Below, one piece after another: positions 7,441 to 45,228 of a stretch of 64,000 nt of DNA. The position numbers and the translations under genes are program-made. Every line of letters starts with the position of its first letter. Position 1 is the first letter of the stretch. The notes beneath the pieces are model-generated. The model did not search any database. It saw nothing but the letters and a program-made list of their open reading frames with translations, and was not told the DNA's origin. Origin of the DNA: Thermodesulfobacteriota bacterium (GTDB taxonomy: Bacteria; Desulfobacterota; WTBG01; JAGOGO01); assembly GCA_026625185.1 (NCBI GenBank), contig CP113000.1:2043124-2107123 (forward strand). Direction: 5' to 3'.

Positions 7441-7511
7441 GTTGTTGTTATTTTGTTTCCTTGTAAAAAATCGCAGAACATCATTAAAAATAGATTTGGA
7501 ATGTTACGATT

Positions 7512-12160: not shown

Positions 12161-12417
12161 AACAGTTTAAGAAAATTTACCTGATAGAATTTTTACAGGT
12201 TGTCAAAAAAAGTTATAATTCTTCTTTTCCCCGATCTTATTATTCCCGTCCATAGAACTTTCTCGCCTGATTTACTCCTTTTTTGTAAGGAACCTAGTTG
12301 ACATTTTACTTTTGAAAATTTGTTTAATAATTATCTCGTTATAAAGTAAAAAAATTAGAAAATGGAATTATGACCCGGTCTCGGGAAAAATGAAAATGAA
12401 GGAGAAAAAATAGGGAG

Positions 12418-12448: not shown

Positions 12449-12959
12449 TGGAAAATGCTTGTTGGGGAAAAGAACAAAGCTGACACTGGATTTGGGTAAA
12501 TAATTAATCCGGAGTTGGCACATAGTCAAAGCGTAAAACGATGATTTTGTTTTCTGCCCGTGGTAAGGATGTCGGCTTCATGAAAAATCCCTCAGTACTG
12601 TCATTTTGGGCAACTTGACGATTTTTTTTATAAAACTTGTAAAAAGGATAAGGTTTCTTCCCGCAGCCGAAAAACCAGGGTCAGCAAAATCGGACTTTTT
12701 GCGAAGCTGTCGAGGGTAATTAATTTGGGAAAAATATGGGGCAGGGGTAGAGATTTCTTTGAATGCGGTAAAATTTATGATAACCTCGCCTACCAAGTTA
12801 AGTATTGCAGTTGAATAGAGCCATTAAGAGACAAAGTATAAAGAAGTCACTTTCGATAACCACCGATAAACCGAGAGAAAATTCGATTTATTAAGTGATA
12901 CTAATTTTTTTATATTTTTATAGTTCACTCTGATTCCAGGTAAAAAAAGGAGTTTAATT

Positions 12960-15659
12960 GTGCAAGAAATTAAGTTCACCATCAATGGAAAAGATGTGAC
13001 AGGGGGAAAGGGCCAAACTATTCTTGAGATTGCTTTGAAAAATGGATTTGATATCCCATACTTATGTTATCATCCCAAGATCAGCAAAACCGGTGCTTGT
13101 CGTATGTGTATTGTTCGGGTTAATGAGGTAATGTTAAAAACAGCCTGCACAGAGCCGGCAATGGAGGGGATGAAAGTAATTACTGAGGATGAAGAGATAA
13201 TAAAAATAAGAAAGGGGATTTTAGAACTCCTTCTTGCCGAAGGCGACCATAATTGCCTTTATTGTGATGCCAATGGTGCATGTGAATTACAGACCCTTGT
13301 ACACCGATATAATATTGATCAGGTAGCTTACGAATATCCTAAACGAAACCGCGAGATTGATTATGAATCGAGTGAGGGTCTGAAGAGAAATGAAAACAGA
13401 TGCATCCTCTGTGGAAGATGTGTGAAGGCATGTGGGGAGATCCAGTTATCAAATGTGTGGAGTTTTACTGATAGAGGAGGTCATACTCACCTTACCTCAG
13501 GTTTATATGAAAAGATCGGGGATTCGAGTTGTGTTAAATGCGGCGCATGTGTTCAGTTGTGTCCCACTGGTTCCCTTTCATTCCAGACGGTCCTTGGGAG
13601 AGGTGAAAATTGGGAACTCACAAAGGAATCAAGCATCTGTATTTACTGCGGGGTTGGATGTAAGATTGACTACTATAAAAACAAGGAGGGTCTACTTGTA
13701 AAGACTATTGGTCATGATGATGGACCCAACCGGGGACATCTCTGCGTTAAGGGAAGATTTGGATTTGATTTTATTCAGAACGGAAAGAGATTATCAAAAC
13801 CCCTTATCAAGCGAAACGGTGTATTCGAGGAGGCAAGCTGGGATGAAGCCCTCGATCTTGTTGCCAGTAAGTTTATTGAGATAAAAGACAAGTATGGTCC
13901 TGATTCTATTGCTGCACTATCTTCAGCGAAATGCACAAATGAAGAGAATTATTTGATGCAAAAAATTATGCGGGCAGTAATCGGGACGAATAATGTAGAT
14001 CACTGCGCTCGTCTCTGACACAGCTCAACCGTCGCCGGTCTGGCGGCTGTATTTGGTTCCGGAGCAATGACTAACTCTATCCGTGAGGTGCCTCTTTCAG
14101 AAGGTTTTCTGGTAATAGGTTCCAACACCACAGAAAACCACCCGGTCATCGGTTCGATGATAATGAAAGAAGTGATTAATCAGGGCAAGAAGCTGATAGT
14201 AGTCGACCCCCGTGAGATTGAGCTTTCCCGATATGCCGATTATTATTTTCAAATCAAGCCAGGTACAAATATCGCGATCCTCAACGGTTTTATGCATGTG
14301 CTGATTAAGGAAGGAATTTTCAATAAAGAATACGTCGAGAAGCGGTGCGAAGGCTTTGAGGCGATGGCGAAAATCCTTGAGAAATATAACCCTGAATTTG
14401 TCGCAGAGATTTGCGGAATTGATAATCCGGAAGATATTGTTAAAGCAGCGCGTCTCATGGCGCAGCTAAAACCTATGGCTCTCTATTATGCAATGGGGAT
14501 TACCCAGTTTGTCTCAGGGGTAAATGGCGTAAAGTCTACGGCAAACCTTCAGATGCTCCTCGGTAATTTAGGCATCCCGGGTGGAGGAGTTAATCCCTTG
14601 CGGGGACAGAATAATGTGCAAGGCGCATGCGATATGGGCGCGCTTAATGCGGTGTATCCCGCATATCAACCGGTTGCAAGTGAGGAGAATAAAGAAAAGT
14701 TTGAAAAGGCATGGGGTGTTTCAGGATTGCCTACCAAACCGGGTCTTACCATAGTTGAGATGTTTAATGCTGCAGTTGCCGGAAATTTAAAGGCAGTATA
14801 TGAGATGGGCGAGAACCCTGTGATGTCCGATCCCAATCAACACCATGTGATTGAAGCGCTTGAAGCTCTGAATTTTTTTGTTGTTCAGGATATTTTTTTT
14901 ACGGAGACAGCCCAGTATGCTGATGTGGTATTACCGGCATGTTCGTTTCTCGAAAAAGAGGGAACGGTAACCAATACCGAGAGAAGGATTCAACCCATGC
15001 ACAGGGTGCTTCCGCCCTGGGGTGACGCGAGGGATGATTGGTGGATCACCATGCAGATAGCCAATAGAATGGGCGCACAATGGGATTATAAAAAGCCTGA
15101 GGATATCTTTGAGGAGATAAGGATGGTTACTCCCTCCTATGCGGGAATCACGTATGAAAGGGTTGAGAAGGAACTGATACAGTGGCCATGCCCTGCGAAA
15201 GATCATCCGGGAACACAGTATCTGCACAAGGAAAAGTTTTCACGGGGACTTGGTTTACTTACGGGGATAGATTATACCCCGCCGGCAGAAGAAACCGACA
15301 CTGACTATCCTGTAATCCTGACGACCGGACGTATCCTCGAACATTTTCATACCGGAACCATGACCAGAAACTCAAAAATTCTTGATGAGATTGTGCCTGA
15401 GGGATTTGTGGAAATTCATCCCAACGATGCAAAAATTTATAACATCACGGATGGCGAAGTTATATCTATATCTTCGAGGAGGGGTAGCATCAGAATTAGG
15501 GCAAGGGTTACGGATAGGTCGAAACCCAATGTGGTTTTTATTCCATTTCATTTCTTCGAAGCGGCTGCGAACGAACTGACTATAGATGCTCTTGATCCGA
15601 CATGTAAGATCCCGGAGTACAAAGTGTGCTCTTGCAAGATTGAAAAAATTTATCTGTAA
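12960..15659 (+). CDS. fdhA: Formate dehydrogenase alpha subunit, a selenocysteine-containing molybdopterin enzyme with an N-terminal 2Fe-2S/4Fe-4S NuoG-like domain. Single gene read through the in-frame TGA at 14016..14018.
   Basis: The track splits it into 12960..14018 and 14067..15659 in the same frame. The sequence around the TGA reads [31 protein letters not shown], matching the FdhF active-site context CARV-U-HGPSVAGL. The N-terminus has ferredoxin-type Cys clusters. The C-terminus is MopB_CT-like. GTG start with an AAGGAG RBS. Confidence 0.85.
14016..14060 (+). promoter_or_regulatory. Sec codon (UGA) plus downstream SECIS-like hairpin GUCGCC-GGUCU-GGCGGC
   Basis: The hairpin starts about 13 nt 3' of the UGA. 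The GGUCU apical region resembles the E. coli fdhF SECIS loop. Confidence 0.5.
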
Positions 15660-15674
15660 AGGCGGTGATGGGAG

Positions 15675-17498
15675 ATGTTAACAACAGAGGACATTAAAGG
15701 CGTAATCGAGAAAAGAGGAAGCTCAAAAGAACATCTTATGTTTATATTGCGGGATCTCGAGAATATTTCTGGTAATAATCAACTTGAAATTGATGTGTTG
15801 GAGAAAGTAGCTGAGATAACAAAAATCCCAAAGAGCACCATTGCAGGTTTTGTGGGCTTCTACACCATGTTCAAGACAAATCCCAGGGCACCCTTTATTA
15901 TAAGGGTTTGCAAGTCAGGGCCTTGTCATGTTATGGGGGCAAGAACAATTTTTGATGCAGTAGAGCGAAATTTAGGCATTAAGCCTGGAGAAGCAACCCC
16001 TGATGGTCTGTTTTACCTTGAACAGTGTGAATGCCTTGGTGTTTGTTCGGTAGCCCCTGCTATGATGATAAACTACGATATCCATGGTAACCTTACTGAG
16101 AAAAAAATAAAACAAATTTTAGAGTCTTATAAATCCCAAAAGGCAATTTTTGGAGAAAAATGCGGGCCGGAGGTAGAAGGAAAGGCTTGCGTTATTGATG
16201 ATGATAGACAGACAAAGAGACTTTTAGTCATGGTCGGCAAAGTCGACCCTCTTAGCATTGACAGTTATATAAAAAATGGCGGTTATGCCGCGATAAGAAA
16301 GGCCATCAGAGAATATTCTTCAGATGATGTGATCAATATTGTGAAGGATTCAGGGCTCAGTGGCAGAGGTGGCGCGGGATTCCCGGCAGGGTTAAAGTGG
16401 TCATTTATGCCGAAGGGGGATATGCAAAAGTACGTAATTTGTAATGCCGACGAAGGGGAACCGGGAACTTTTAAAGACAGGGTTCTGATGGAGGAAAATC
16501 CTCACTTGATTATTGAGGGGATGCTGCTTTGCGGATATGCGACCGGCGCCACCGTTGGTTATATTTACGTGCGAGGGGAATTCAGGCGCGCTATTGAAAG
16601 ACTTCAAAGAGCCATTGACCAGGCAAGAGAAAGCCGAATGTTGGGGAAGCACCTTTCCGGTTCGACATTCAGCTTTGATATTTTCATCAAAGAAGGTGGT
16701 GGGGCGTATGTATGCGGTGAGGAATCATCGCTTATGAATTCAATGGAAGGCAAGCGGGGTTTTCCGCGGTTCAGACCACCATTTCCCGCGGGTGCTGGTT
16801 TTATGGGGATGCCGTCGAACGTCAATAATGTTGAGACATACGCATCGGTCCCGATGATTATTGAGCATGGTGCCACGTGGTATAAGTCACTGGGCACAGA
16901 AAAGTGCTCTGGAACAAAACTTTACTGCCTATCCGGTAAGCTGAACAGAACAGGGCTGGTTGAACTGCCCATGGGGACAACCCTTCGTGAACTCATTGAT
17001 ATATATGGTAAAGGCATTAAAGATGGAAAAACCTTTAAATTTGCCCAGGTGGGCGGTTCAGCTGGGGGCGTTTTTGGTGAGGATTTGCTTGACCTCCCTC
17101 TTGATATAGATCAGACAATAAAAGCTGGTGTTACGCTTGGTTCCGGAGTTGTGCTTGCGTGCGATAAGGATACCTGTGCGGTTGATTTTCTTCTAAATAT
17201 AATCAGTTTTTTTGCGCACGAATCCTGTGGTCAGTGTGTCCCTTGCAGGGTCGGGACATCACAGTTACACTTTCTTGCAAAGAAATTTGCAATGAGGACA
17301 GCAGTAGAAAAGGATATTGATTCTATGATTGAAAAAGCACAGTTGATGAAGCAGGCTTCTCTTTGTGCGCTCGGGCAATCACCTATATTACCTATTACAA
17401 CCACATTGAAATATTTCAGGGAGGAGTTTTTGAATCACTGTAATACAAGATACAGTTGCCCTGAGTGTGACATGACGTTGGAAAGGTTTTACAGGTAA
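15675..17498 (+). CDS. fdhB: Formate dehydrogenase beta (diaphorase) subunit, a NuoE-like 2Fe-2S domain fused to a NuoF-like FMN/NAD(H)-binding 4Fe-4S domain
   Basis: The N-terminal thioredoxin-like 2Fe-2S Cys pattern is CKSGPC...CECLGVC. It is followed by GRGGAGFPAGLKW and CNADEGEPGTFKDR (NuoF 51-kDa signatures) and a C-terminal CGQCVPCR. Confidence 0.8.
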   Translation: MLTTEDIKGVIEKRGSSKEHLMFILRDLENISGNNQLEIDVLEKVAEITKIPKSTIAGFVGFYTMFKTNPRAPFIIRVCKSGPCHVMGARTIFDAVERNLGIKPGEATPDGLFYLEQCECLGVCSVAPAMMINYDIHGNLTEKKIKQILESYKSQKAIFGEKCGPEVEGKACVIDDDRQTKRLLVMVGKVDPLSIDSYIKNGGYAAIRKAIREYSSDDVINIVKDSGLSGRGGAGFPAGLKWSFMPKGDMQKYVICNADEGEPGTFKDRVLMEENPHLIIEGMLLCGYATGATVGYIYVRGEFRRAIERLQRAIDQARESRMLGKHLSGSTFSFDIFIKEGGGAYVCGEESSLMNSMEGKRGFPRFRPPFPAGAGFMGMPSNVNNVETYASVPMIIEHGATWYKSLGTEKCSGTKLYCLSGKLNRTGLVELPMGTTLRELIDIYGKGIKDGKTFKFAQVGGSAGGVFGEDLLDLPLDIDQTIKAGVTLGSGVVLACDKDTCAVDFLLNIISFFAHESCGQCVPCRVGTSQLHFLAKKFAMRTAVEKDIDSMIEKAQLMKQASLCALGQSPILPITTTLKYFREEFLNHCNTRYSCPECDMTLERFYR

Positions 17499-17533
17499 AA
17501 AAATAACATTTAATTCTTGATAAGGAGAAAGAG

Positions 17534-18352
17534 ATGGCTCATAAACCTGTAGAAATTGTTGAGTTGGCTGGAGATGCTGGGAAATACAAGGGAAATCTGA
17601 CGCCGGGAAACTGGTTGATAAGGAGTTTCATGGCGGGACTTTTTATTGCGGTGGGCGGAGCCCTTGCCACGGTCTGTTCCACCGGGACAACAATTCCGGG
17701 CATTAAATCCCTCATTGCCGGGGCGGTCTTCCCGGTCGGCCTCATCGCGATTGTTATTACTGGTATGTCGCTTTTTACCGGTGATACCATGCTGATTCCC
17801 ATGGCGGTATTTCAGAAAAAAACCACCTGGGGAAAAGTTTTTAACGGGTGGTTATGGGTTTATATCGGAAATTTCATCGGTTCGCTTTTCTGGGCTTATA
17901 TAATGGCGGTTGGGCCTTTCTGCAAGGGGGGTGGTTCGGAGCTAACCATTTTCGGTCAAAGTGCGATTGCAATATCCGAAGCAAAAACATTACCTTATAT
18001 GACGGTCGGCGGTATGGGACTCTGGTCGGCATTCATGAAGGGCATCGCCTGCAACCTGCTCGTGAACGTTGCCATCTTGCTGGCACTTTCATCGAAGAGT
18101 ATGGTGGGTAAGTTTTTCGGGATCTGGTTCCCGATCATGGCCTTCGTATCATCAGGCTTTGAACACTGCGTGGCCAATATGTATTTTATTCCTGTGGGAA
18201 TAATGATGGGTGCAAATGTTAGTTGGGGTCAGTTCATCCAATGGAACCTGATCCCGGTTACTCTCGGCAATATCGTCGGAGGGTTCGTATTTATCGGTGC
18301 GGTCTATTTCTGGTCATTTAAGAAGGAACTATCCACTGTAGCTCAAACCTAA
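17534..18352 (+). CDS. focA: Formate/nitrite transporter family channel (FocA/NirC-like)
   Basis: Six-TM protein with FNT-family signatures (GMSLFTGDTM, NLLVNVAI, FEHCVANMYFIP). Directly follows fdhB. Confidence 0.8.
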   Translation: MAHKPVEIVELAGDAGKYKGNLTPGNWLIRSFMAGLFIAVGGALATVCSTGTTIPGIKSLIAGAVFPVGLIAIVITGMSLFTGDTMLIPMAVFQKKTTWGKVFNGWLWVYIGNFIGSLFWAYIMAVGPFCKGGGSELTIFGQSAIAISEAKTLPYMTVGGMGLWSAFMKGIACNLLVNVAILLALSSKSMVGKFFGIWFPIMAFVSSGFEHCVANMYFIPVGIMMGANVSWGQFIQWNLIPVTLGNIVGGFVFIGAVYFWSFKKELSTVAQT

Positions 18353-18421
18353 ACAATGCCCGGCCGAAAATGATCGGTTTGTATCATGTGCTTGAAAGTG
18401 GGAACAAAATTTAAATAACGT

Positions 18422-18463
18422 AAACAAATGCCCCGACCACCAAATGGTCGGGGCATTTGTTTT
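18422..18463. terminator. Perfect hairpin AAACAAATGCCCCGACCA-ccaaa-TGGTCGGGGCATTTGTTT followed by TTATT, between convergent focA and the CBS gene
   Basis: Read directly in the sequence. 18-bp stem. Confidence 0.7.
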
Positions 18464-18551
18464 ATTCTGTCAAATATCAAAAAGACGCTTCCTACCACCA
18501 GGGCGTAAGCCCGTGGGCATCTACATCTCTTAAGGTTGTACAGGAGGTTAT

Positions 18552-19312
18552 ACGTACTTTCCTGCAATTTAGTCACTTAGTTGTGCGATAAGACTTTCTT
18601 TTTCATAGATGATTGCCTTTATCGCATCCCCGATAGAAATTAATCCAACCAACTTATTTTTGTCAAAAACAGGTAGATGTCTTACATGCTTACCCGTCAT
18701 AAGCACCATGCATTCTTCAACGGTGTTTTCAGGTTTTACAATGAGCGGAGGTGAGGTCATGATTTCTTGAACGAGGGTATCTCTTGACGTTCTCCCTTTC
18801 AGAATAATCTTCCTCGCGTAATCTCGTTCTGAGACGATACCGATTATCTTTCCCTTTTCTATAACTACTAAAGCCCCGATGTCCTTTTCCCCCTTGATAT
18901 GCAGTGCCTCAAACACCGTGGCAGTTGGTGAGATTGACCAGACCTCATTTTTTTTTCTCTTTCAGAATGTCGTTGACGGTTTTCATAATTTGCCTCCTTC
19001 TCAAAAAAATATTGTTATATTGTCAAGATGTTTTGCAGTCATTATTAAGTCCATCGGGCGATACACATATTAAAAACCTAAAAAAGTACCTCCGCGCAAA
19101 AAAGTATTTTATTTTAAAAACTTACCTATCTTAAAATCATTGCTTTACGGAGTTTATTTTTCAAGTCAGATTTTTTTACAGAACCTCAAACAAGAGGTCC
19201 TTAAAATGTTTGCATTTTTTCCCTATTTTGCTCGAAGACCTTAGTTTTTTATGCAAAAGATGATTTTATAGGGTGGAAAAAATATTGTTTTTTTGTATTC
19301 TTAAAATAAAAA
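18552..19312. repeat. Segmental duplication, copy 1: the 3' end of the CBS gene plus its about 300-bp upstream AT-rich region
   Basis: 18552..18660 aligns with 21650..21740 and 19025..19312 aligns with 21770..22092, at roughly 80-85% identity. Confidence 0.6.
18569..18916 (-). CDS. CBS-pair domain protein
   Basis: Two CBS motifs (IMTSPPLIVKPENTV..HLPV and KLVGLISIGDAIK). On the minus strand upstream there is TTGACA..., a GGAGG RBS, then the ATG. Confidence 0.75.
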   Translation of the reverse strand: MFEALHIKGEKDIGALVVIEKGKIIGIVSERDYARKIILKGRTSRDTLVQEIMTSPPLIVKPENTVEECMVLMTGKHVRHLPVFDKNKLVGLISIGDAIKAIIYEKESLIAQLSD

Positions 19313-19870
19313 TATAAAAAAAATATGGGTAAAGTTTAAAATTCCGGACCAACAATGGGGAAAACATCAAGTAGGAATTAAATTACACTGTCAGAAATGT
19401 TCAAGTGCGAGATACCTGTCTCTTGTTGACGTTTTTCATTACGATAACTGTAAGTTCTCATTAAAACTTCAACTCTATTGAAAGAAAAATTTGTTTCGAG
19501 TGATTGGATATATTATCATGAGCTTTACAGCTAAATTATGGACGGGGTATTAGTACTAATGATTTTGATATGGGGAATGTCGGTTAATACTCTTTCTTAA
19601 GAGTGATTACCAAGGGATATTGGTTTAATCTGTACCCCCATTTTTTAACCCGCTTCTTCTCAGACCTGATTGGCCACTTTCAAAAGAAGGACCGATAATC
19701 GGGATTGGGACAATTGGGCCATCTATTTGTTATTCTTTAAATTACGAAGCATATGTCCTGACCGAGAGTTCACCAATTGCCTGTTACAACCATGAAATCC
19801 GCTTTTAAATTGTTTCAACCTATTATAAAAACTGATAAAATTACAAACGGTTTTTTACGGTGTAGTCTCA

Positions 19871-20488
19871 ATGTGTAGCCTCAATAATTTTAGAAACACC
19901 ATGGCCAGTGTTATTCTTGCGGGCGGTGAAAGCTCTCGAATGGGTAAAAATAAGGCTTTTATTGAGGTTAACGGCGTCCGTATGATAGATCGTACGGTAT
20001 CCCTTTTAAAAGAAATTTTTGACGAAGTTATACTGGTTACCAATTCACCTTTTGAATTCCTAGATCTCGACATCAAGATAGTAAAAGACCTTATCCCAAA
20101 GATAGGTCCTCTGGGAGGCATTTATACGGGTCTTTTTTTCTCATCTTCACCGAAAGCCTTTTTTGTTGGCTGTGATATGCCATTCCTTAACAAAGAAGTT
20201 ATCCAATATTTCCTTGACTTAGCTGAGACAGCGGAGATTGTAGTTCATCGACTAAATGACTATTGGGAGCCCCTCCATGCGGTTTATTCCCGCAGTTTTA
20301 TGAAATCAATTGAAAGACTTATTGAGCTAGGTGAACGAAAAATAATAAAAGGCTATAAATGGACAAAAGTGCATGAAGTAACGAGAGAAGAACTTACGCT
20401 CTTGGACCCGGACTTGCGCTCGTTGCTTAATTTTAATACCCCCGAGGAGTTAAAAAAACTTTTGGATATATACACACCATATGGGTAG
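19871..20488 (+). CDS. mobA: Molybdenum cofactor guanylyltransferase MobA-like nucleotidyltransferase
   Basis: VILAGGESSRMGKNKAF at the N-terminus, about 195 aa, MobA-like fold. The start may be the internal ATG at 19901. Confidence 0.7.
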   Translation: MCSLNNFRNTMASVILAGGESSRMGKNKAFIEVNGVRMIDRTVSLLKEIFDEVILVTNSPFEFLDLDIKIVKDLIPKIGPLGGIYTGLFFSSSPKAFFVGCDMPFLNKEVIQYFLDLAETAEIVVHRLNDYWEPLHAVYSRSFMKSIERLIELGERKIIKGYKWTKVHEVTREELTLLDPDLRSLLNFNTPEELKKLLDIYTPYG

Positions 20489-21212
20489 CCAGGTTACCAG
20501 CCGGGAGTTTACTGACAGTCTGGAACACCCCGTCATCCATCAAATTAGATTTTTTCTCTTCTATTCTGTGTACGCCAAGCGATTTAAAGGAGTTAGCAGT
20601 GGGATGGCTATTTAACCAAGGGTATATCGAATCGGTAAGTGATATGGCCGTCTTGGTTTTCTGCGAGGATATGAACGACATTAGCATGCAACTTACCAAT
20701 TTCCGGTACAAGGAAAGGGAAAGGGAACAGATTATCAAAACCTCGGCATGCATGGGCGGTGAGATTTCTTACCGGCAGTTTTTCAAAGACACACCAAAGT
20801 TAAGCGGGGACCTAGGTTAACGATTCGGCTTCTCAAATCTCTTACGAAGAAAGCGTTATCCATGGCACACCATTACAAGGCCACGGGGGGACTCCACTTA
20901 TGCCACCATCGCCTCAGCAAGCAGTCAACAGATTGATACATTTTTCGAGGACGTAGGCCGACACAATGGGGTAGATAAGGCTATGGGAAGGATGCTTCTC
21001 ACCAGCGGCAGGATTTCTTCTGAAATGGCGCTCAAGGCGGTTCACGGAAATATTAGTATTGTAGCCAGCCTAACACCTGTACGAATCTCGGCGCCCAAAT
21101 AGCGGAGGAAGCAGGTCTGACCCTTGTATGCCGTGTACTGAGAGCCTGGCCTGTTCTTTGGTGCGGCGCACAAAGGATCGTAGCTGATGATGAAGGAAAA
21201 GGTGCCCAGTAA
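20461..21212 (+). pseudogene. fdhD: fdhD (formate dehydrogenase accessory sulfurtransferase) pseudogene, with at least three frameshifts and an internal stop
   Basis: FdhD-like peptides lie in alternating frames: CTPSDLKELAVGWLFNQGYIES..KTSACMGGE (frame 1, stop at 20818), then ATGGLH (frame 0), then EDVGRHNGVDKAMG..LLTSGRISSEMALKA..ISIVASLTPVRISAP (frame 1, stop), then IAEEAGLTLV (frame 0). No in-frame start codon. Confidence 0.6.
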
Positions 21213-21320
21213 ATTGCCACCTGACCGTGGTCCAAATATCGGGTTTGTAAATTGACCTTTCGAAATAATATTTCTGGGATAAGAAATGGCCTAATGAAAA
21301 GATCTCAGGGTGAAAAACTA

Positions 21321-21368
21321 AATGCGGCGTGTTTGATTCTGGCGGGAGGAGAGGGTAAGAGCCTATGA
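21321..21368 (+). pseudogene. 16-codon fragment resembling the MobA N-terminus (NAACLILAGGEGKSL*)
   Basis: Nucleotide-level similarity to 19910..19950 (ATTCTTGCGGGCGGTGAAAGC versus ATTCTGGCGGGAGGAGAGGGT). It stops after 16 codons. Confidence 0.3.
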
Positions 21369-21430
21369 AAATCACGACCTCGGTTGACAACCTATGTTAT
21401 CATAGGAAACTACTTTATAGGAGGTCGTGT

Positions 21431-21626
21431 TATGACAAAAGCCCAAAGGGATATTGCAAGAAAGATCCGGGTTCTTCAGTATGCGCAAGACGGTATGTTG
21501 GTTGTGGGTCTCGTGATCGTCTTGGTCTACAAAAAAAACCGGAGAAAAAAGCCGCTTAAGATACGTTCGCTTCCAATCTGCGGTGTCCCATTCAAGTCCA
21601 TTGCGGCAATCCATCCTACTCGTTAA
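21431..21626 (+). CDS. Hypothetical small membrane protein (65 aa)
   Basis: A GGAGG RBS is 6 nt upstream of the ATG. One hydrophobic helix then a basic tail. No recognisable family. Confidence 0.25.
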
Positions 21627-21649
21627 TGTTTATTAAACTTCTTTTTCTG

Positions 21650-22092
21650 CAATTTAGTCGCTTAGTTGTGTGAGAAGACTCTCTTGTTCAGAAATGATTG
21701 TTTTTTTTATTACCTCCCCAATAGAAATTAATCCACCTAACTTTTGTTTTCTTTATTTTCAATAGTCATTAATAAGCCCATCAGTCGAAACGCATATTAA
21801 AAACCTAAAAAAATACCCCCGCGCAAAAAGTATTTTATTTTAAAAATTTACCTATCTTAAAATCATTGCTTTACGGAGTTTATTTTGCTGGCCAGATTTT
21901 TTTACAGGATGTCAAATAAAAGATTCTTAAGATGTTTATATTTCTATTCCCCTTTTACTCGAAGGGATTATTTTTTTGCAAATGAAAATTTTGTTAGGGT
22001 GAAACATATTGATTTTTTTTGTATTATTAAGATAAAATTTCATTATGGTGAAAAAAATATTGTTTTTTTGTATTATTAAGATAATATTTAAT
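21650..22092. repeat. Segmental duplication, copy 2. It lacks the CBS gene body, retains about 90 bp of the CBS 3' end as a remnant, and has an internal tandem duplication near its end.
   Basis: Aligned by eye to 18552..19312. GGTGAAA(A/C)ATATTG(A)TTTTTTTTGTATTATTAAGATAA occurs twice in tandem at about 21995..22085. Confidence 0.6.
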
Positions 22093-22105
22093 TTCGGGAG
22101 GAAGA

Positions 22106-22136
22106 AATTTTTACTGTTGGTATAAGTTGTGCAATC
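22106..22136 (+). promoter_or_regulatory. Conserved promoter-like motif AATTTTTACTGTTGGTATAAGTTGTGCAAT upstream of the hydrogenase operon (GG-N10-GC, extended -10-like TGGTATAAG)
   Basis: Matches the motif at 12418..12448. About 75 nt upstream of the 22213 start. Confidence 0.35.
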
Positions 22137-22212
22137 TCCAAAATCAATTATGGTTTAACTTCAATTAATTTTATTTAAAAAAGATAAGGTTAAATTCAGT
22201 AGGAGGCAGATT

Positions 22213-23262
22213 ATGGAATTAAAGAAAATTGATAAGCCTGATCTAGGTCTCTTTCTTCAGAATCTTATCAAGGATTTTCAGGTGGAGGGGGTTAAAAGAA
22301 AAGGGCAGTCTGTTTATGGCCAGTCCTTTTTTTATGGTTCAATCAATGCTCCCGATGAGCTATGCTTGGATTTTGACTGTACGACCATGCCTCCCAAAAA
22401 GTATTTTATCCCCCCCAAAGAAGAATTGCTTAAATTCACTATCGCCCCTAAACCGGAAGTTGCTGAGGTGATCGAAAGCAAACCGCTTATAATCTTTGGC
22501 GTCCATCCTTATGACCTTAAGGCTGTTAATCAAATGGATAAAATCTTTAGCGAAGGGAACCCGGATCCCAATTATTTAAAACGAAGAGAAGGAATTTTAC
22601 TTATTGGGGTTGATCCGACAAAGGTTTCCCCTCGTTCTTTCTGGAACTCCATGGAGGCAGCTTCAGTATCATCAGGCTTTGATTTGATGCTCACGGATAT
22701 CGGCGAAAGCTATCTGGTAGAGGTAGGAACCGATAAGGGCGGCAATCTTCTCAAAAAGTATGCAAAGGTTAGCTCAGTTACTAAGGAAGAAGAACAAAAG
22801 CGAATCGACGTCAGATCTAAGATCTGGAATATGTGTAAAAAAAGAGCGCTGAACTTTCCTATGCGAGAACTGCCTTCTTTGTTGGTTAATTCTCTGAATA
22901 GTCCTCTTTGGGATGAAAAAGCGAGCAAATGTCTTAGTTGTGTGACCTGTAATATGGTTTGCCCGACGTGCTACTGTTTCGATGTATGGGATGATGTTGA
23001 GCTTGACCTTACCCATGGGCAACGTTATCGCCGTTGGGACGGATGCTTAGCTTCTGATTTTGCAAAAGTTGCCACCGGAGAGAATTTTCGCGAGACTCGG
23101 GCTGCAAGATACCGTCATCGTTTTCTCCGCAAAGGACAATACCTGTTTTCTAAATTAAATGATGCTGCGTGTGTGGGGTGTGGCCGATGTGCGGCATATT
23201 GTCTCCCTGATATTGCCGATCCGGTGGATGTCTTTAATAGATTAAAGGAAGCTGTGAAATAA
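22213..23262 (+). CDS. Sulfhydrogenase-type [NiFe] hydrogenase beta subunit (4Fe-4S, HydB/AsrA-like)
   Basis: CLSCVTCNMVCPTCYC and CVGCGRCAAYC ferredoxin-like clusters. Architecture typical of group 3b/3d beta subunits. Confidence 0.7.
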   Translation: MELKKIDKPDLGLFLQNLIKDFQVEGVKRKGQSVYGQSFFYGSINAPDELCLDFDCTTMPPKKYFIPPKEELLKFTIAPKPEVAEVIESKPLIIFGVHPYDLKAVNQMDKIFSEGNPDPNYLKRREGILLIGVDPTKVSPRSFWNSMEAASVSSGFDLMLTDIGESYLVEVGTDKGGNLLKKYAKVSSVTKEEEQKRIDVRSKIWNMCKKRALNFPMRELPSLLVNSLNSPLWDEKASKCLSCVTCNMVCPTCYCFDVWDDVELDLTHGQRYRRWDGCLASDFAKVATGENFRETRAARYRHRFLRKGQYLFSKLNDAACVGCGRCAAYCLPDIADPVDVFNRLKEAVK

Positions 23263-23276
23263 GGAGGGAATCTATC

Positions 23277-24113
23277 ATGAATCATTCGATGCCAGACGGT
23301 TCTCCTTATGTACCCAAGTGGGCGGAGATTTCCCGAATCGAGAAGCTTACGGAAAGTGAGAAACTTTTTGAATTACGCCTCTCGAATGGGCAGCCGTTGG
23401 GTCATAAGCCCGGTCAGTTTGTAGAAGTATCTGTTCTGGGGATTGGAGAGGCTCCCATATCAATTTCTTCTCCCCCAATAAATGATAATTCTTTTGAACT
23501 GGCAGTTCGAAAGGTAGGGAATGTTACCAATGCGATGCACAACCTTGGGGTTGGGGGCAAGCTTGGAATTCGAGGACCTTTTGGCACCAATTTTCCAATT
23601 GATGAAGCTAAGGGGAAAGATATTTTATTTGTGGCTGGAGGAATCGGGTTGGTTCCCTTACGGTCCTTTATCAAATTTGTGCTGGAAAATAGAAAAGACT
23701 ATGGAGAGGTTACGGTCTTATTCGGTGCCCGTAATCCCTCGGAGCAGCTTTTTCTCAGCGAACTTGAGCAATGGAGGGGGAGAAAGGATATCTCGTACCT
23801 GGAGACAGTAGATCGAGCCGACGAAAATTGGAAAGGAAACGTTGGGGTTATCACCACCCTTTTTCCTAAAGTTCAAGTTGATCCTGCTAAAACGATATGT
23901 GTTGTGGTTGGCCCTCCGGTAATGTATCGATTTGTTATCATGGAGACAAAAGCGAAGGGCATACCGGACAAGCAAATTTTCCTTTCCCTCGAAAGAAGAA
24001 TGAAGTGTGGACTGGGGAAATGCGGTCATTGCCAGATCAATAATATTTATGTCTGTCAGGATGGTCCGGTGTTAAGGTATTCGGATATCTTTGCTTTAGA
24101 GGAGGCGCTGTGA
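23277..24113 (+). CDS. Hydrogenase gamma subunit: FNR-like FAD/NAD(P)-binding oxidoreductase with a C-terminal 2Fe-2S motif
   Basis: FAD-binding RLSNGQP/GHKPGQFV, NAD-binding GGIGLVPLRS, C-terminal CGLGKCGHCQ. Confidence 0.7.
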   Translation: MNHSMPDGSPYVPKWAEISRIEKLTESEKLFELRLSNGQPLGHKPGQFVEVSVLGIGEAPISISSPPINDNSFELAVRKVGNVTNAMHNLGVGGKLGIRGPFGTNFPIDEAKGKDILFVAGGIGLVPLRSFIKFVLENRKDYGEVTVLFGARNPSEQLFLSELEQWRGRKDISYLETVDRADENWKGNVGVITTLFPKVQVDPAKTICVVVGPPVMYRFVIMETKAKGIPDKQIFLSLERRMKCGLGKCGHCQINNIYVCQDGPVLRYSDIFALEEAL

Positions 24114-24853
24114 TGGATAAACCAAGAGTAGCTTTTTTTGATTTTGCGAGCTGCGAGGGTGATCAGCTCCAAATCGTAAACCTGGAAGAGGACCTCTTGA
24201 AGGTAGTTGGGGCGGTAGATGTTGTGAGTTTCAGGGAAGCCATGAAAGGGCACTCGGACAATTATGACATCGCCTTTGTTGAGGGTTCGATTACTCGTCG
24301 CTCAGATGAACCGAGGCTTTTGGAAATTCGTAAAAATGCAAAAATTTTAGTAGCAATTGGAGCATGCGCTACGATAGGGGGCGTTAACTTGCTCAAAAAT
24401 TTTCAGGACCTGGAAAGCGTAAGAAAATTTGTTTATGGAGATAAGTTTTTCCAGTATGAGACCTACCCGGCCCGACCTATCAAAGCAGTGGTTCCGGTAG
24501 ATCTCGAAATCCATCAATGTCCTATAAATCGGGATGAATTTGTCATGGCATTTAAAGCGCTTCTTATGGGGAAAAAACCGGAATTTCCCAATTATCCGGT
24601 ATGCGAGGACTGTAAAAAAGCTGAAAATATTTGCGTTTTCGAAATGGGGATGACCTGCATGGGACCGGTTACCCGAGCAGGTTGCGGAGCTTGTTGCGTT
24701 GTGGAAGGAAGCGTGTGCTGGGGATGCCGTGGATTTATTGATCATCCCAATGCGGACTCGGAAAGAGAAGTCTTGGCTAAGTATGGTCTGAGTGTAGGCG
24801 ACATTCTTAAAAAATTTCGACTTTACACTGGCTTTTCGGAGGTGTCAAAATGA
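24110..24853 (+). CDS. [NiFe] hydrogenase small (delta) subunit, Oxidored_q6/NuoB-like
   Basis: VAFFDFASCEGDQLQ, GACATIGGV, and a distal cluster CPINRDEF...CEDCK..C. Confidence 0.75.
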   Translation: MMDKPRVAFFDFASCEGDQLQIVNLEEDLLKVVGAVDVVSFREAMKGHSDNYDIAFVEGSITRRSDEPRLLEIRKNAKILVAIGACATIGGVNLLKNFQDLESVRKFVYGDKFFQYETYPARPIKAVVPVDLEIHQCPINRDEFVMAFKALLMGKKPEFPNYPVCEDCKKAENICVFEMGMTCMGPVTRAGCGACCVVEGSVCWGCRGFIDHPNADSEREVLAKYGLSVGDILKKFRLYTGFSEVSK

Positions 24854-26124
24854 ATGGTAAAAAAGTCATACAGATTCACCATGTTACCCGCATAGAGGGT
24901 CATGGAAATATCGATATTCAAATTAAAGACGGTAAGGTAGATAAATGTCAGTGGCAGATAGTTGAGGCTCCTCGATTTTTCGAAGCCGCGCTTCGGGGAC
25001 GAAAATGGAATGAAGCCGCCCACATTACCTCGAGGATCTGTGCAATTTGTTCCATTGGCCACACCCTCTGTTCGTTAAAAGCTACTGAGGCAGCCCTGGG
25101 CATCACAATATCCGAACAGACCCTTAAACTCCGCAAACTGTTGATAAATGGCGAGACTCTTCAGAGCCACATTCTTCACTTGGGATACCTGGTAGTTCCT
25201 GACCTTGTAGGAGCGCCGAGCGTTATTCCTCTCGCTTCCACCCATCCGGCAGAAGTGCTTCTCGTTGTCCGACTTCATCGCTTGGCTAATGAAATGTCCG
25301 ACCTGATCGGGGGTCGCACCATTCACCCCCAGCGTCCGGTGGTAGGAGGATTTGCCAAGTGGCCGACCGTGGCCGAATTGGAGAACCTATACCAAAAATT
25401 AGAATCAGCGCAATCTGATGTCATGACATTGGCAGGTTTTGTCAAAGGTCTTGCCCCGAATTTTCCAAAATTTTCTCGGGAGACTGAATATATTGGACTC
25501 ACTCACCCTACTGAATATGCGTTCTACGAAGGAGAGATCGCTTCTACCGATGGAGGAAAATGGCCGGTAGATAACTATAAGAGCATTGTTAATGAATACT
25601 TAGTTCCGCATTCTACTGCCAAGTTTGCCCGGCACAAACGGGATGCTTATATGGTGGGTGCTCTTGCTCGTTTCAATTTGAACTATAACAAACTTCTCCC
25701 CGGAGCCAAGAAGCTTGCTGATGATGTTGGTCTTAAACCCATCAACTTCAATCCCTTTATGAATAATGTGGCCCAGCTGGTGGAAGTAGCTCATGCTTTT
25801 GAAGACTCAATGCAATTAACAAAAAAACTTTTAGAGAAATGGGATCCAGAAGAAAAACCGATTGTTTCTGTTAAAGCAGGACTGGGTTCCGGATCTGTTG
25901 AAGTGCCCAGAGGAATCCTTTTTCATGAATATGAATATAATAAAGATGGTGAGATTGTTTGGGCTAATTGTGTAATCCCCACCAACCAGAACCATGCAAA
26001 TATCCAAAAGGACATGGAAGCTCTGGTGGAGGAGATTAAAGAACGTCCACAAGAAGAAATTGAATTAATGGTGGAGATGCTGGTGCGGGCTTATGATCCC
26101 TGTGTTTCATGTTCCACCCATTAA
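24850..26124 (+). CDS. [NiFe] hydrogenase large (alpha) subunit
   Basis: N-terminal RIEGHG, RICAICSIGHT (the L1 CxxC motif) and C-terminal DPCVSCSTH (DPCxxCxxH). The ORF stops immediately after the His. Confidence 0.85.
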   Translation: MNGKKVIQIHHVTRIEGHGNIDIQIKDGKVDKCQWQIVEAPRFFEAALRGRKWNEAAHITSRICAICSIGHTLCSLKATEAALGITISEQTLKLRKLLINGETLQSHILHLGYLVVPDLVGAPSVIPLASTHPAEVLLVVRLHRLANEMSDLIGGRTIHPQRPVVGGFAKWPTVAELENLYQKLESAQSDVMTLAGFVKGLAPNFPKFSRETEYIGLTHPTEYAFYEGEIASTDGGKWPVDNYKSIVNEYLVPHSTAKFARHKRDAYMVGALARFNLNYNKLLPGAKKLADDVGLKPINFNPFMNNVAQLVEVAHAFEDSMQLTKKLLEKWDPEEKPIVSVKAGLGSGSVEVPRGILFHEYEYNKDGEIVWANCVIPTNQNHANIQKDMEALVEEIKERPQEEIELMVEMLVRAYDPCVSCSTH

Positions 26125-26174
26125 TGGAAATATTTAAAATATTTTAATCTTATCGAAGAAAAAGGAGAATGTAA

Positions 26175-26585: not shown

Positions 26586-26829
26586 AGATAAATAGAAATG
26601 TGGGATGGTTGAGAGACCTGCGAAGAATATTTCCCTTTCTTACATCACAAACATATATCGTGCTGCGGATCAGCGGGCTGACGGACACGCGAGCAAGTTC
26701 GCGGGGTCAGCTGTCCGTTGCAACCGCTTGATGGCCAGGCGCGAAGCGTCAGCGTCATCGTTGATTATAAAACGAACCCCCCCTCAAATGAATATCTTAA
26801 TGGTCTACCCAAAATTCGGCTCATAACAA

Positions 26830-45221: not shown

Positions 45222-45228
45222 TTAGTTA

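What the first reader, a model, noticed from the sequence alone, without database searches (positions are those of the whole stretch)
18552..22092. Partial segmental duplication carrying gene remnants: a CBS-gene 3' fragment, a MobA N-terminal fragment and an internal tandem duplication
Two segments align, with about 360 bp missing from the second copy:
- 18552..18660 aligns with 21650..21740;
- 19025..19312 aligns with 21770..22092.
The missing stretch is the body, start and promoter of the CBS gene.

Copy 2 therefore retains a dead 90-bp C-terminal fragment of the CBS gene. It also retains the roughly 300-bp AT-rich region that, in copy 1, lies between the divergently arranged CBS gene and mobA.

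Copy 2 sits directly upstream of the hydrogenase operon and contains an internal 2x tandem repeat at 21995..22085. Between the copies lie the fdhD pseudogene and a 16-codon MobA-like N-terminal fragment (21321..21368).

This is a fossil record of duplication, deletion and gene decay within the fdh/hyd region. The duplicated AT-rich segment may carry a shared upstream regulatory region that has been re-used for the hydrogenase operon.
Basis: seen in the sequence. Interest (0 to 1): 0.55.

Follow-up and report, generated by a model that had tools for sequence, protein, structure and literature searches.

The report
Duplicated junction scar upstream of hydrogenase
The repeat is real, but it is an ordinary scar of genome rearrangement. 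A composite piece of DNA, made of a small CBS-domain gene plus the control region of a hydrogenase operon, was duplicated when formate dehydrogenase genes were inserted between the hydrogenase maturation and structural genes, and each copy has since decayed in a different half.

Summary
Segment 18548-18661 matches 21633-21749 at about 80%. Segment 19037-19311 matches 21764-22037 at about 83% (E 8e-72). Copy 2 lacks 360 bp, and that stretch is flanked in copy 1 by a 7-bp direct repeat, TTGTCAA. Copy 2 also carries a 49-bp tandem duplication. Three assemblies are 100% identical here.

Comparison with relatives changes the interpretation. Relatives have hypFCDE directly followed by hydBGDA. The block fdhA(Sec)-nuoEF-focA-CBS-mobA-ψfdhD is therefore an insertion into that intergenic region.

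Each repeat copy is a chimera with the same internal junction (19098/19099 = 21824/21825). Left of the junction is the CBS gene with its proximal upstream DNA, which is native next to focA. Right of it is the AT-rich upstream region of hydB, which is native to the hydrogenase operon. That region holds motifs conserved across relatives and ends at a conserved sigma-54-type promoter (22118-22133), which only copy 2 retains.

So the hydrogenase operon did not borrow this region. Copy 1 is the displaced duplicate. The CBS fragment in copy 2 evolves faster than its counterpart (15 versus 4 unique changes). CBS copy 1 is itself frameshifted. The fdhD pseudogene is confirmed. The 16-codon MobA-like fragment is not significant.

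Verdict: an ordinary rearrangement scar, of modest interest.

The parts
18548..18661 (-). Copy 1, segment A. This is the last 38 codons of the CBS-pair gene, including the native stop at 18548-18550. A premature TAA lies at 18569-18571.
   Evidence: Matches 21633-21749 at 80-81%. Intact 145-aa orthologues end ...QLSDYIAGKYV. Copy 1 reads GAC TAA ATT GCA GGA AAG TAC GTA TAA.
18662..19036 (-). Present only in copy 1. It holds the CBS gene body, the start codon (18984-18986), the RBS and about 50 nt upstream. A T9 run at 18948-18956 causes a +1 frameshift.
   Evidence: TTGTCAA flanks it at 18660-18666 and 19020-19026, 360 bp apart. Relative L038 has T8 and an intact 145-aa ORF. The frameshift is present in all assemblies recovered for this genome.
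19037..19098 (.). Copy 1, segment B1. This is the CBS-proximal upstream DNA, up to junction J.
   Evidence: 86.7% identical to 21764-21824. It is homologous to the CBS upstream DNA of L038 (97%) and L040 (75%), and this homology fades at about 19086-19110.
19099..19311 (+). Copy 1, segment B2. This is an orphan duplicate of the hydB upstream activating region. Its Block 1 (19171-19191) is degraded to CCTCAAAC. It has a single 49-bp unit (19259-19307) and no sigma-54 promoter after it.
   Evidence: Aligns to L043 9625-9844 at 74%, the same stretch that lies directly upstream of hydB in L043. No GG-N10-GC promoter-like site occurs on either strand of 18900-19900, even at 6 of 12 matches.
19312..19900 (+). 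Non-coding region X upstream of mobA. It travels together with mobA.
   Evidence: L052 (MobA 93% identical) aligns to 19473-20560 at 92.4%. There is no protein, Rfam or structure signal (one search gives z = 0.29).
19871..20488 (+). mobA (molybdenum cofactor guanylyltransferase). The true start is probably at 19901.
   Evidence: Pfam NTP_transf_3 at E 2.6e-36. NCBIfam MobA models match at E 1e-47 to 1e-39 but below their curated cut-offs. Orthologues at about 68% identity sit in a housekeeping context, dtd-mobA-mur ligase.
20489..21210 (+). fdhD pseudogene. It is N-terminally truncated, with three frame changes and an in-frame stop.
   Evidence: The three reading frames are shown. The stitched product matches Pfam FdhD-NarQ at E 3.4e-40. 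tblastx matches fdhD next to mobA in L020, L024, L029 and L031.
21432..21626 (+). An orphan 64-codon ORF with a good RBS. Its status is unknown.
   Evidence: It has no homologue among 1.84 billion representative proteins except itself and no Pfam or NCBIfam hit.
21633..21749 (-). Copy 2, segment A. This is a dead 3' fragment of a CBS gene. It has the same TAA, at 21654-21656.
   Evidence: Relative-rate test against L040: 15 unique changes in copy 2 versus 4 in copy 1, chi-square 6.4.
21764..21824 (.). Copy 2, segment B1. This is the CBS-proximal upstream remnant, up to junction J.
21825..22092 (+). Copy 2, segment B2. This is the native hydB upstream activating region. It contains Block 1 (TTTTTTTACAGGATGTCAAAT, 21897-21917) and the tandem 49-bp units (21985-22033 and 22034-22082), which carry Block 3.
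   Evidence: It is contiguous with hydB, as in L043: window 21825-26651 matches L043 9625-14441 at 84.5%. The blocks are conserved in L043, L044, L047 and L049. TRF result.
22118..22133 (+). Sigma-54-type promoter (-24/-12) of hydBGDA: TGGTATAAGTTGTGCA.
   Evidence: The GG-N10-GC spacing is correct. The aligned position reads TGGCATAATGTGTGCG in L043 and GGGCACAATTTATGCT in L044, L047 and L049. An NtrC-type activator gene lies at 31163-32593.
12188..12208 (+). A third copy of the Block 1 motif (TTTTTACAGGTTGTCAAAA), about 30 nt after hypE. It marks the left edge of the split ancestral hypE-hydB spacer.
   Evidence: The motif search gives 7 hits against 1.28 expected.
12942..18352 (+). The inserted formate module: fdhA (in-frame TGA at 14016-14018, read as selenocysteine), a nuoE/F-like gene and focA.
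   Evidence: Pfam results. It is 85% identical and collinear with L039-L042, where it sits at a different locus. It is absent between hypE and hydB in L044 and L047-L049.

Best explanation
**What it is.** This is a rearrangement scar: a direct duplication, about 81% identical, of a composite segment of about 765 bp. The two copies flank a 2.3-kb insert made of non-coding X, mobA, the fdhD pseudogene and an orphan ORF.

**How the segment is built.** The duplicated segment is itself a chimera that was created once. On one side of junction J lie the CBS-pair gene and about 110 bp of its own upstream DNA, which came in with the fdhA-nuoEF-focA module. On the other side lies the AT-rich upstream activating region of the group-3b [NiFe]-hydrogenase operon hydBGDA.

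**Most likely order of events (inferred).**
1. The ancestor had hypFCDE, then an AT-rich spacer carrying Block 1, Block 3 and a sigma-54 promoter, then hydBGDA.
2. The formate module was inserted into that spacer, which created junction J.
3. The segment CBS-J-UAS was duplicated around the mobA/fdhD block. This could have happened by Campbell-type single-crossover integration of a circular intermediate, or by unequal or illegitimate recombination.
4. The copies then decayed in complementary ways.
   - Copy 2 lost 360 bp of CBS by slippage between two TTGTCAA repeats. Its CBS remnant drifted toward AT. It stayed joined to the sigma-54 promoter and hydB, and it gained a 49-bp tandem duplication of the Block 3 motif.
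   - Copy 1 kept the CBS gene in its native position next to focA. That gene was later hit by a +1 frameshift and also carries a premature TAA. The hyd-UAS half of copy 1 is an orphan: it has no promoter and its Block 1 is degraded.

**How it works today (inferred).** Copy 2 is the working control region of hydBGDA. An NtrC-type enhancer-binding protein, plausibly the one encoded at 31163-32593, binds Block 1 about 200 bp upstream. The AT-rich, IHF-like Block 3 bends the DNA. Sigma-54 RNA polymerase starts transcription near 22145.

**Shown versus inferred.**
- Shown: the duplication, the shared junction, the insertion relative to other genomes, the conservation of the motifs, and the asymmetric decay.
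- Inferred: the order of events, the recombination mechanism, and the regulatory function.
For: **The duplication is real.**
- Three assemblies are 100% identical over the region.

**The fdh block is an insertion.**
- hypFCDE is directly followed by hydBGDA in L044, L047, L048 and L049.
- The fdh-focA-CBS module sits at another locus in L039-L042.

**The AT-rich region belongs to hydB.**
- Copy 2 is contiguous with hydB exactly as in L043, L045 and L046.
- Copy 1 matches that same L043 stretch.

**Both copies share junction J.**
- CBS upstream homology with L038 and L040 stops at about 19086-19110, which is where homology with L043 starts, and this holds in both copies.

**The control region has conserved parts.**
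- Block 1, Block 3 and a GG-N10-GC promoter are conserved in otherwise diverged spacers of 24-32% GC.
- The Block 1 motif gives 7 hits in the window against 1.28 expected. These include a perfect 8+1+8 palindrome about 230 bp upstream of another sigma-54-like promoter at 29119.
- A gene for an NtrC-type activator is present.

**The decay is asymmetric.**
- The CBS fragment of copy 2 has 15 unique changes against 4 in copy 1.
- The deleted stretch is flanked by a 7-bp direct repeat exactly 360 bp apart.
- L043 and copy 1 each have a single 49-bp unit, so the tandem duplication is specific to copy 2.

[quoted passage not shown] This bears on the window only if it comes from ORM2a, which is probable but unverified.
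Against: - In the UAS half the two copies are equally diverged from L043 (74.4% and 75.4%; 18 versus 16 unique changes). Overall there is no rate evidence that copy 2 is more constrained. Only the short motifs differ.
- A 62-nt patch right of J is 61/62 identical between the copies (permutation P = 0.0007). This points to gene conversion or shared constraint, which the simple decay model does not predict.
- The shared TAA, together with the 97-100% identity of CBS copy 1 to L038 (which lacks both TAA and J), does not fit a strict clock.
- No transcription start site, no binding data and no rpoN gene were examined.
- The sigma-54 site in the window is the weakest of the aligned set (8 of 12 consensus positions).
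- All three assemblies probably come from the same enrichment-culture lineage.
Confidence: 0.75

Rival explanations
1. The AT-rich segment is the native divergent CBS-mobA intergenic region, and a copy of it was later recruited as upstream regulatory DNA for the hydrogenase operon.
For: In the window, copy 1 does lie between CBS (minus strand) and mobA (plus strand). Sigma-70-like hexamers occur in both copies.
Against: - Orthologous CBS genes (L038, L039-L042) lack this sequence beyond about -100.
- mobA orthologues (L003-L006, L050, L051) have unrelated contexts.
- The element lies upstream of hydB in L043, L045 and L046, which have no CBS or mobA nearby.
- Its motifs are conserved in all the hypE-hydB spacers examined.
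Confidence: 0.04
2. Both copies are functional. The duplicated hyd-UAS in copy 1, or the near-identical 62-nt patch, is kept by selection as a shared operator, so that CBS and/or mobA (formate dehydrogenase cofactor supply) are co-regulated with the hydrogenase.
For: - A 61/62-identical patch sits in an 81% identical background (P = 0.0007).
- A conserved sigma-70-like TTAAGA-17-TAAAAT on the minus strand lies inside the patch in both copies, pointing toward CBS.
- The UAS halves of the two copies diverge at equal rates.
Against: - No sigma-54 promoter lies near copy 1 on either strand.
- Block 1 is degraded in copy 1 (3 mismatches, including the invariant TGTC).
- The patch is not conserved in L043, L044, L047 or L049.
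- The CBS gene it would serve is frameshifted.
- In copy 2 the same promoter would point into a dead fragment.
Confidence: 0.12
3. The repeat is a mobile or dispersed repeat family (a MITE, an IS end, or REP-like), not a local segmental duplication.
For: The window holds several other dispersed intergenic repeats of 80-93% identity. Relatives carry IS elements at the same spacer: a Y1 transposase in L043 and an IS-like ORF in L052.
Against: - There are only two copies in 64 kb, and they are collinear across two unrelated halves (a gene 3' end and a promoter region).
- Each half is orthologous to single-copy DNA in the relatives.
- Neither terminal inverted repeats nor target-site duplications appeared in the repeat listing.
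- A 24-mer from the most conserved part has no match in the viral or metagenome contig collections.
Confidence: 0.03
4. Copy 2 is not a duplicate of the chimera. It is the remnant of an old paralogous CBS gene that was natively divergent from hydB.
For: CBS-pair genes of this 145-aa type are very common, with thousands of homologues. The copy-2 peptide keeps the family-typical IISEQE, where copy 1 has IIYEKE.
Against: - No relative has a CBS gene upstream of hydB.
- The copies share derived states relative to L040: the residues ESL, the TAA stop and the junction J.
- Copy 2 is closer to copy 1 (80%) than to L040 (71%).
Confidence: 0.05

Closest known systems
Direct repeats left by Campbell-type (single-crossover) integration, or by duplication-insertion in bacterial chromosomes, followed by reciprocal decay of the duplicates
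   Same: - Two collinear direct copies flank an inserted block.
- One copy keeps the gene and the other keeps the promoter side.
- An internal deletion lies between short direct repeats (TTGTCAA, 360 bp apart).
- The non-functional half evolves faster.
   Different: - The copies are old (about 19% diverged), and no integrase, att site or IS was identified at the borders.
- The duplicated unit was already a chimera of two unrelated loci.
- A 62-nt patch has stayed, or has become again, nearly identical.
Sigma-54-dependent promoters with an upstream activator site and an IHF-bent spacer. An example is the E. coli formate regulon (fdhF, hyc, hyp), activated by FhlA.
   Same: - A -24 GG / -12 GC element with canonical spacing.
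- A conserved, partly palindromic motif about 170-220 bp upstream.
- AT-rich DNA with a TTGATW core in between.
- An enhancer-binding-protein gene in the same cluster.
- The control concerns formate/hydrogen metabolism genes.
   Different: - The activator here is an NtrC-type response regulator (REC-AAA-HTH_8), not the GAF-type FhlA.
- The enzyme is a cytoplasmic group-3b 'sulfhydrogenase-like' HydBGDA, not Hyd-3.
- Nothing has been tested experimentally.
- The window's -24 element is weak (TGGTAT).
The sulfhydrogenase-like HydABGD cluster of the benzene-fermenting Desulfobacterota ORM2a/ORM2b (PMC13101534, PMC10190668)
   Same: - The window is 100% identical to contigs of the DGG-B/OR consortium metagenomes (JARDUI is the DGG-1A metagenome in PMC10190668).
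- It is about 85-92% identical to contigs named ORM2_.
- The papers list FocA, Fdh and HydABGD-like genes for ORM2a.
   Different: - In the passages of the two papers I searched by keyword, I found no mention of the duplication, the pseudogenes at this locus or sigma-54 control. I did not read the papers in full.
- I could not compare the window with CP113000.1 directly, so assigning it to ORM2a rather than ORM2b is an inference.

Membership tests
Low-copy segmental (direct) duplication | Two collinear copies with identity far above chance | tested here: met
   E 7.6e-72 and 2.8e-20 in self-BLASTN. Same order and orientation in both copies.
Low-copy segmental (direct) duplication | Not an assembly artefact | tested here: met
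   Three assemblies are 100% identical over 9 kb that includes both copies. The copies are 19% diverged, so they cannot be collapsed reads.
Low-copy segmental (direct) duplication | Not a multi-copy mobile repeat | tested here: inconclusive
   There are only two copies in the 64-kb window, and no match in the viral or metagenome collections. The rest of the 3.3-Mb genome was not available.
Sigma-54-dependent promoter | -24 GG and -12 GC elements with GG-N10-GC spacing | tested here: met
   TGGTATAAGTTGTGCA at 22118-22133, matching 8 of 12 consensus positions.
Sigma-54-dependent promoter | Conservation at the orthologous position in relatives | tested here: met
   TGGCATAATGTGTGCG in L043 and GGGCACAATTTATGCT in L044, L047 and L049 fall in the same alignment columns.
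Sigma-54-dependent promoter | A cognate enhancer-binding protein and rpoN in the genome | tested here: inconclusive
   A gene with a Sigma54_activat domain, NtrC-type, lies at 31163-32593. No search for rpoN was made, in the window or elsewhere in the genome.
Sigma-54-dependent promoter | A transcription start about 12 nt downstream, dependent on the activator | not testable with these tools
   This needs dRNA-seq or 5'-RACE on the culture.
FdhD pseudogene | Significant FdhD/NarQ homology that is interrupted by frameshifts or stops | tested here: met
   Pfam PF02634 at E 3.4e-40, but only after stitching four pieces with three frame changes.
MobA N-terminal fragment (21321-21368) | Significant similarity to MobA beyond the generic LAGGxG nucleotide-binding motif | tested here: not met
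   A profile built from 120 MobA homologues scores -2.0 bits, E about 0.5-2, in a database of 18 sequences. Pfam and NCBIfam give no hit.
MITE / IS remnant | Terminal inverted repeats, target-site duplication, or transposase homology | tested here: not met
   The repeat listing shows no terminal inverted repeats at the copy ends. ORF64 between the copies has no homologue. The recalled resemblance to an IS481 N-terminus was not supported.

The most novel reading that the evidence does not exclude
The hypE-hydB spacer may be a recombination hot spot where whole control-region cassettes and metabolic modules are exchanged between co-existing ORM2-type lineages.

Three observations point this way:
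- L043 and L044 are 99.6% identical on both flanks but have entirely different spacers.
- L038 shares an 0.8-kb near-identical CBS tract with the window.
- A patch at junction J looks like gene conversion.

On this reading, the duplicated CBS-UAS junction is kept partly homogenised because it still acts as a shared operator, linking formate dehydrogenase cofactor supply to a sigma-54-controlled hydrogenase.
Probability: 0.12. Interest if true: 0.45.

Novelty: new member of a known kind. Interest (0 to 1): 0.27.

Why it matters
**What the locus records.** It shows how a hyp-fdh-hyd supercluster was assembled in an uncultured syntrophic benzene fermenter. A selenocysteine formate dehydrogenase module and its cofactor genes were dropped into the spacer between the hydrogenase maturation genes and the hydrogenase structural genes.

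**The practical gain.** The analysis delimits the probable control region of the only hydrogenase detected in that organism's proteome. The parts are a sigma-54-type promoter at 22118-22133, an upstream motif (TTTTTTTACAG-N2-TGTCAAAT) and a nearby NtrC-type regulator. This gives concrete targets for transcriptomics and binding assays.

**Caveats for annotators.**
- The CBS gene and fdhD here are pseudogenes.
- The mobA-like stub is noise.

**Overall.** Beyond that, it is an ordinary example of duplication followed by complementary decay.

Tried and rejected
1. **Global MAFFT of the two copies** misplaced the large gap. I used local BLASTN and ungapped families instead.
2. **Anchoring synteny on MobA** in GTDB genomes gave 35 loci, none sharing the fdh/hyd context.
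3. **An exact 24-mer from the conserved patch** had no match in the metagenome or viral contig collections. The source contig is evidently not in those collections.
4. **The IS481 idea.** I recalled that ORF64 (MTKAQRDIARKIRVLQ...) looks like an IS481 transposase N-terminus. Pfam, NCBIfam and an exhaustive phmmer search found nothing but the protein itself, so I dropped the idea.
5. **A Moco riboswitch or other RNA** in the 590-bp region upstream of mobA. Rfam gave no credible hit at E up to 5, and folding gave z = 0.29.
6. **Remnants of other genes** in region X and in 12161-12959. tblastx found only a weak orf68-like match shared with L043.
7. **A sigma-54 promoter near copy 1.** None on either strand.
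8. **A rate asymmetry in the UAS half.** None.
9. **The intrinsic-terminator-like hairpin at 21950-21966** is not conserved in copy 1 or L043, so I ignored it.

Full report
**1. Observation**

The two aligned segments exist as described.
- Self-BLASTN of the window gives 19037-19311 vs 21764-22037 at 82.8% over 279 columns (E 7.6e-72), and 18558-18661 vs 21643-21749 at 80.4% (E 2.8e-20).
- Ungapped extension takes the first segment to 18548-18661 = 21633-21749.
- Copy 2 lacks 18662-19036 and has 14 nt in its place. In copy 1 this stretch is bracketed by TTGTCAA at 18660-18666 and 19020-19026, exactly 360 bp apart. A deletion by slippage between short direct repeats is therefore the simplest origin.
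- TRF confirms the internal tandem repeat: 21985-22093, period 49, 2.2 copies.
- Contigs from two JGI metagenomes and from GenBank JARDUI010000313 are 100% identical over 18213-27262. The structure is not an assembly artefact.

**2. Gene content**

Pfam gives this order:
- pst/phoU
- hypF (7512-9833), hypD, hypE (ending at 12160); the short hypC gene lies between hypF and hypD (called in L001)
- fdhA, with an in-frame TGA at 14016-14018 that I read as selenocysteine
- a NuoE/F-like gene, then focA
- a CBS-pair gene on the minus strand
- mobA
- a decayed fdhD
- hydBGDA, whose best NCBIfam hits are the sulfhydrogenase alpha subunits, below their cut-offs
- two pairs of response regulator and histidine kinase genes
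- an NtrC-type sigma-54 activator (31163-32593)
- ftsY

Three details matter for the finding.
- The fdhD pseudogene is real. Four pieces, joined across three frame changes, give FdhD-NarQ at E 3.4e-40.
- The CBS gene of copy 1 is itself damaged. A T9 run at 18948-18956 shifts the frame, whereas the relative L038 has T8 and an intact 145-aa ORF. In addition, TAC has become TAA seven codons before the native stop.
- The copy-2 remnant has the same TAA.

The 16-codon MobA-like stub at 21321-21368 does not reach significance against a profile built from 120 MobA homologues.

**3. What relatives show**

*The insertion.* The closest HydB homologues (85-91% identity) come from contigs in which hypF-C-D-E is followed directly by hydBGDA. 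Only an AT-rich spacer of about 585-740 bp lies between them (L044, L047, L048, L049). The 9.5-kb stretch from fdhA to the fdhD pseudogene is therefore an insertion into that spacer in the window's lineage.

*The formate module elsewhere.* In L039-L042 (85% nucleotide identity) the module fdhA-nuoEF-focA, with CBS convergent on it, sits at another locus. There it lies beside an Mvh-type hydrogenase. The position of CBS copy 1 next to focA is thus native to that module.

*The AT-rich region.* In L043, L045 and L046, homology to the window runs without a break from 21825 through hydA (window 21825-26651 = L043 9625-14441). Copy 1 (19099-19313) matches that same L043 stretch at 74%. The CBS upstream regions of L038 and L040 match both copies only up to about 19086-19110, and then continue with an unrelated sequence, an fdhD remnant.

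*Conclusion.* Both copies are chimeras with the same junction J (19098/19099 = 21824/21825). CBS and its proximal upstream DNA lie on one side. The native hydB upstream region lies on the other. The junction formed once, and the duplication came afterwards.

**4. The AT-rich half is a control region**

I aligned copy 1, copy 2 and the hypE-hydB spacers of L043, L044, L047 and L049 (24-40% GC, otherwise poorly alignable). Short conserved blocks stand out:
- Block 1, TTTTTTTACAG-N2-TGTCAAAT (window 21897-21917).
- Block 3, AAATATTGATTTTTTTGTATTATTAAG, which lies inside the 49-bp unit and has an IHF-like TTGATW core.
- A GG-N10-GC element: TGGTATAAGTTGTGCA at 22118-22133 in the window, TGGCATAATGTGTGCG in L043, and GGGCACAATTTATGCT in L044, L047 and L049. 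This fits the sigma-54 consensus TGGCAC-N5-TTGCW.

Block 1 recurs in the window more often than expected: 7 hits with up to 3 mismatches, against 1.28 expected. The hits include:
- a copy about 30 nt after hypE (12191-12208), which marks the left edge of the split ancestral spacer;
- a perfect palindrome, TTTTACAG-G-CTGTAAAA, at 28886, about 230 bp upstream of another sigma-54-like promoter at 29119.

Copy 1 ends just after Block 3. It has no sigma-54-like site on either strand, and its Block 1 is degraded to CCTCAAAC.

My reading rests on established knowledge of sigma-54 promoters. Copy 2 is the functional region, built as an upstream activator site, a bend and the promoter. Copy 1 is an orphan.

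[quoted passage not shown] The window very probably belongs to ORM2a or ORM2b, for three reasons:
- it is 100% identical to DGG-B consortium contigs;
- JARDUI is the DGG-1A metagenome of that consortium (PMC10190668);
- it is 85-92% identical to contigs named ORM2_.

**5. Decay patterns**

- With L040 as outgroup, the CBS 3' fragment of copy 2 has 15 lineage-specific changes against 4 in copy 1 (chi-square 6.4). This is what a dead fragment beside a long-functional gene should show.
- In the UAS half the copies are equally distant from L043 (74.4% and 75.4%; 18 versus 16 unique changes). There is no overall rate asymmetry.
- Divergence is uneven along the repeat. The 62 nt immediately right of J are 61/62 identical in an 81% identical background (permutation P = 0.0007). 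This patch is not conserved in the relatives. I favour gene conversion between the copies over shared constraint, but that is untested.

**6. Model**

1. The ancestral spacer carried Block 1, Block 3 and the sigma-54 promoter.
2. The formate module was inserted, which created J.
3. The segment CBS-J-UAS was duplicated around the block X-mobA-fdhD-ORF64. Campbell-type integration of a circle sharing CBS-J-UAS, or unequal recombination, would give exactly this architecture.
4. Copy 2 lost 360 bp and gained the 49-bp tandem duplication. fdhD decayed, which is plausible because an intact FdhD is expressed from elsewhere in ORM2a (PMC13101534). CBS copy 1 acquired the T9 frameshift; when the TAA stop that both copies carry arose is unresolved (section 8).

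X, mobA and the first 70 nt of fdhD travel together, since L052 is 92% identical over 19473-20560. mobA orthologues at about 68% identity sit in a housekeeping context. This mobA is therefore a relocated or second copy.

**7. Rivals**

- *A mobile repeat family.* This is unlikely. There are two copies. Each half is orthologous to single-copy DNA elsewhere. No terminal inverted repeats or target-site duplications were seen. The viral and metagenome collections hold no match.
- *An old paralogous CBS gene beside hydB.* This is contradicted by the shared junction, by the shared derived states, and by the absence of any CBS gene upstream of hydB in relatives.
- *A still-functional copy 1.* This cannot be excluded. 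I give it about 0.12.

**8. Loose ends**

- L038 is 97-100% identical to the window only over 18263-19085, and about 88% identical on the one side that can be compared. Beyond 19085 it continues with the unrelated upstream sequence noted in section 3. This indicates a recent exchange of an 0.8-kb CBS tract, with its right crossover just left of J. L038 lacks the TAA that the two window copies share, which does not fit a simple clock.
- L043 and L044 are 99.6-99.7% identical on both flanks but carry entirely different spacers. This points to cassette-like replacement at this site, or to a chimeric early assembly.

**9. Verdict**

The feature is an ordinary rearrangement scar. Its practical value is that it delimits the probable sigma-54 control region of the hydrogenase operon.

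Novelty: a new member of a known kind. Interest: about 0.27.

Noticed in passing
window 18948-18956 and 18569-18571: The CBS gene of copy 1 is itself disrupted. A T9 homopolymer, where relative L038 has T8, shifts the frame at codon 13. TAC has also become TAA seven codons before the native stop. Gene callers therefore report a 115-aa GTG-started ORF instead of the 145-aa protein. The frameshift is present in every assembly recovered for this genome.
   Followed up: yes
window 18263-19085 vs L038: L038 (Logan SRR21915715) is 97-100% identical to the window over this 0.8-kb tract only, and about 88% identical on the flank that can be compared (beyond 19085 it is unrelated). This looks like a recent homologous exchange of the CBS tract between lineages, with the right crossover just left of junction J.
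   Followed up: partly
L043 6759-9973 vs L044 9415-9973: The two contigs are 99.6-99.7% identical across hypF-hypE and from hydB onward, yet they carry completely different hypE-hydB spacers. L043 has 3.2 kb, with an IS200-type Y1 transposase, four ORFs and a window-like UAS. L044 has a simple 559-bp spacer with its own sigma-54 promoter.
   Followed up: partly
window 14016-14018: fdhA has an in-frame TGA that splits it into ORFs of 352 and 530 aa. I read this as a selenocysteine codon of a selenium-dependent formate dehydrogenase. I did not look for a SECIS element.
   Followed up: no
window 28886-28902 and 29119-29134: A perfect 8+1+8 palindrome, TTTTACAGGCTGTAAAA, is related to Block 1. It lies about 230 bp upstream of a strong sigma-54-like promoter (TGGCATAACCTTTGCT) in front of the response-regulator gene at 29159. 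This may be autoregulation of the two-component / NtrC-type cluster.
   Followed up: partly
window 49150-49280: A c-di-GMP-I riboswitch (Rfam RF01051, 56.6 bits) lies at 49199-49280. It is directly preceded by a sigma-54-like promoter (TGGCATTATAGTTGCT at 49150) and followed by tad/Flp-pilus genes (prepilin peptidase, RcpC, secretin).
   Followed up: no
window 45225-45389 vs 47144-47308 (also 45502-45607 vs 47434-47548): A 165-bp segment, 89% identical, is duplicated upstream of two adjacent minus-strand genes that have no Pfam match (653 aa and 507 aa). It is rich in AACGGTN heptad repeats.
   Followed up: no
window 7279-7443 vs 33271-33530; 32773-33181 vs 39565-39786; 47353-47395 vs 49312-49354 vs 51941-51981: Further dispersed intergenic repeats of 82-93% identity, for example hypF upstream against ftsY upstream. 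The genome seems prone to copying intergenic segments.
   Followed up: no
window 53668-53873 and 51713-51919: A 100-bp tandem duplication at 99% identity, and an array of 35-36-bp palindromic units (CTCTCCCTCAAGGGAGAGGGAG...) of about 5.8 copies.
   Followed up: no
window 2315-2770: A lone 151-aa ORF matches only the C-terminal domain of cation-transporting P-type ATPases. It is probably another gene remnant.
   Followed up: no
window 53939-64000: A minus-strand cluster with phage-tail or GTA-like genes (Phage-tail_3 plus Rcc01698_C in a 1124-aa protein, and a Laminin_G_3 protein) and a Dam-type N6-adenine methyltransferase.
   Followed up: no
window 12301-12444: A remnant, 73% identical, of a 68-codon ORF that also follows hypE in L043, L045 and L046. 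The window and that spacer allele therefore share an earlier insertion history.
   Followed up: partly
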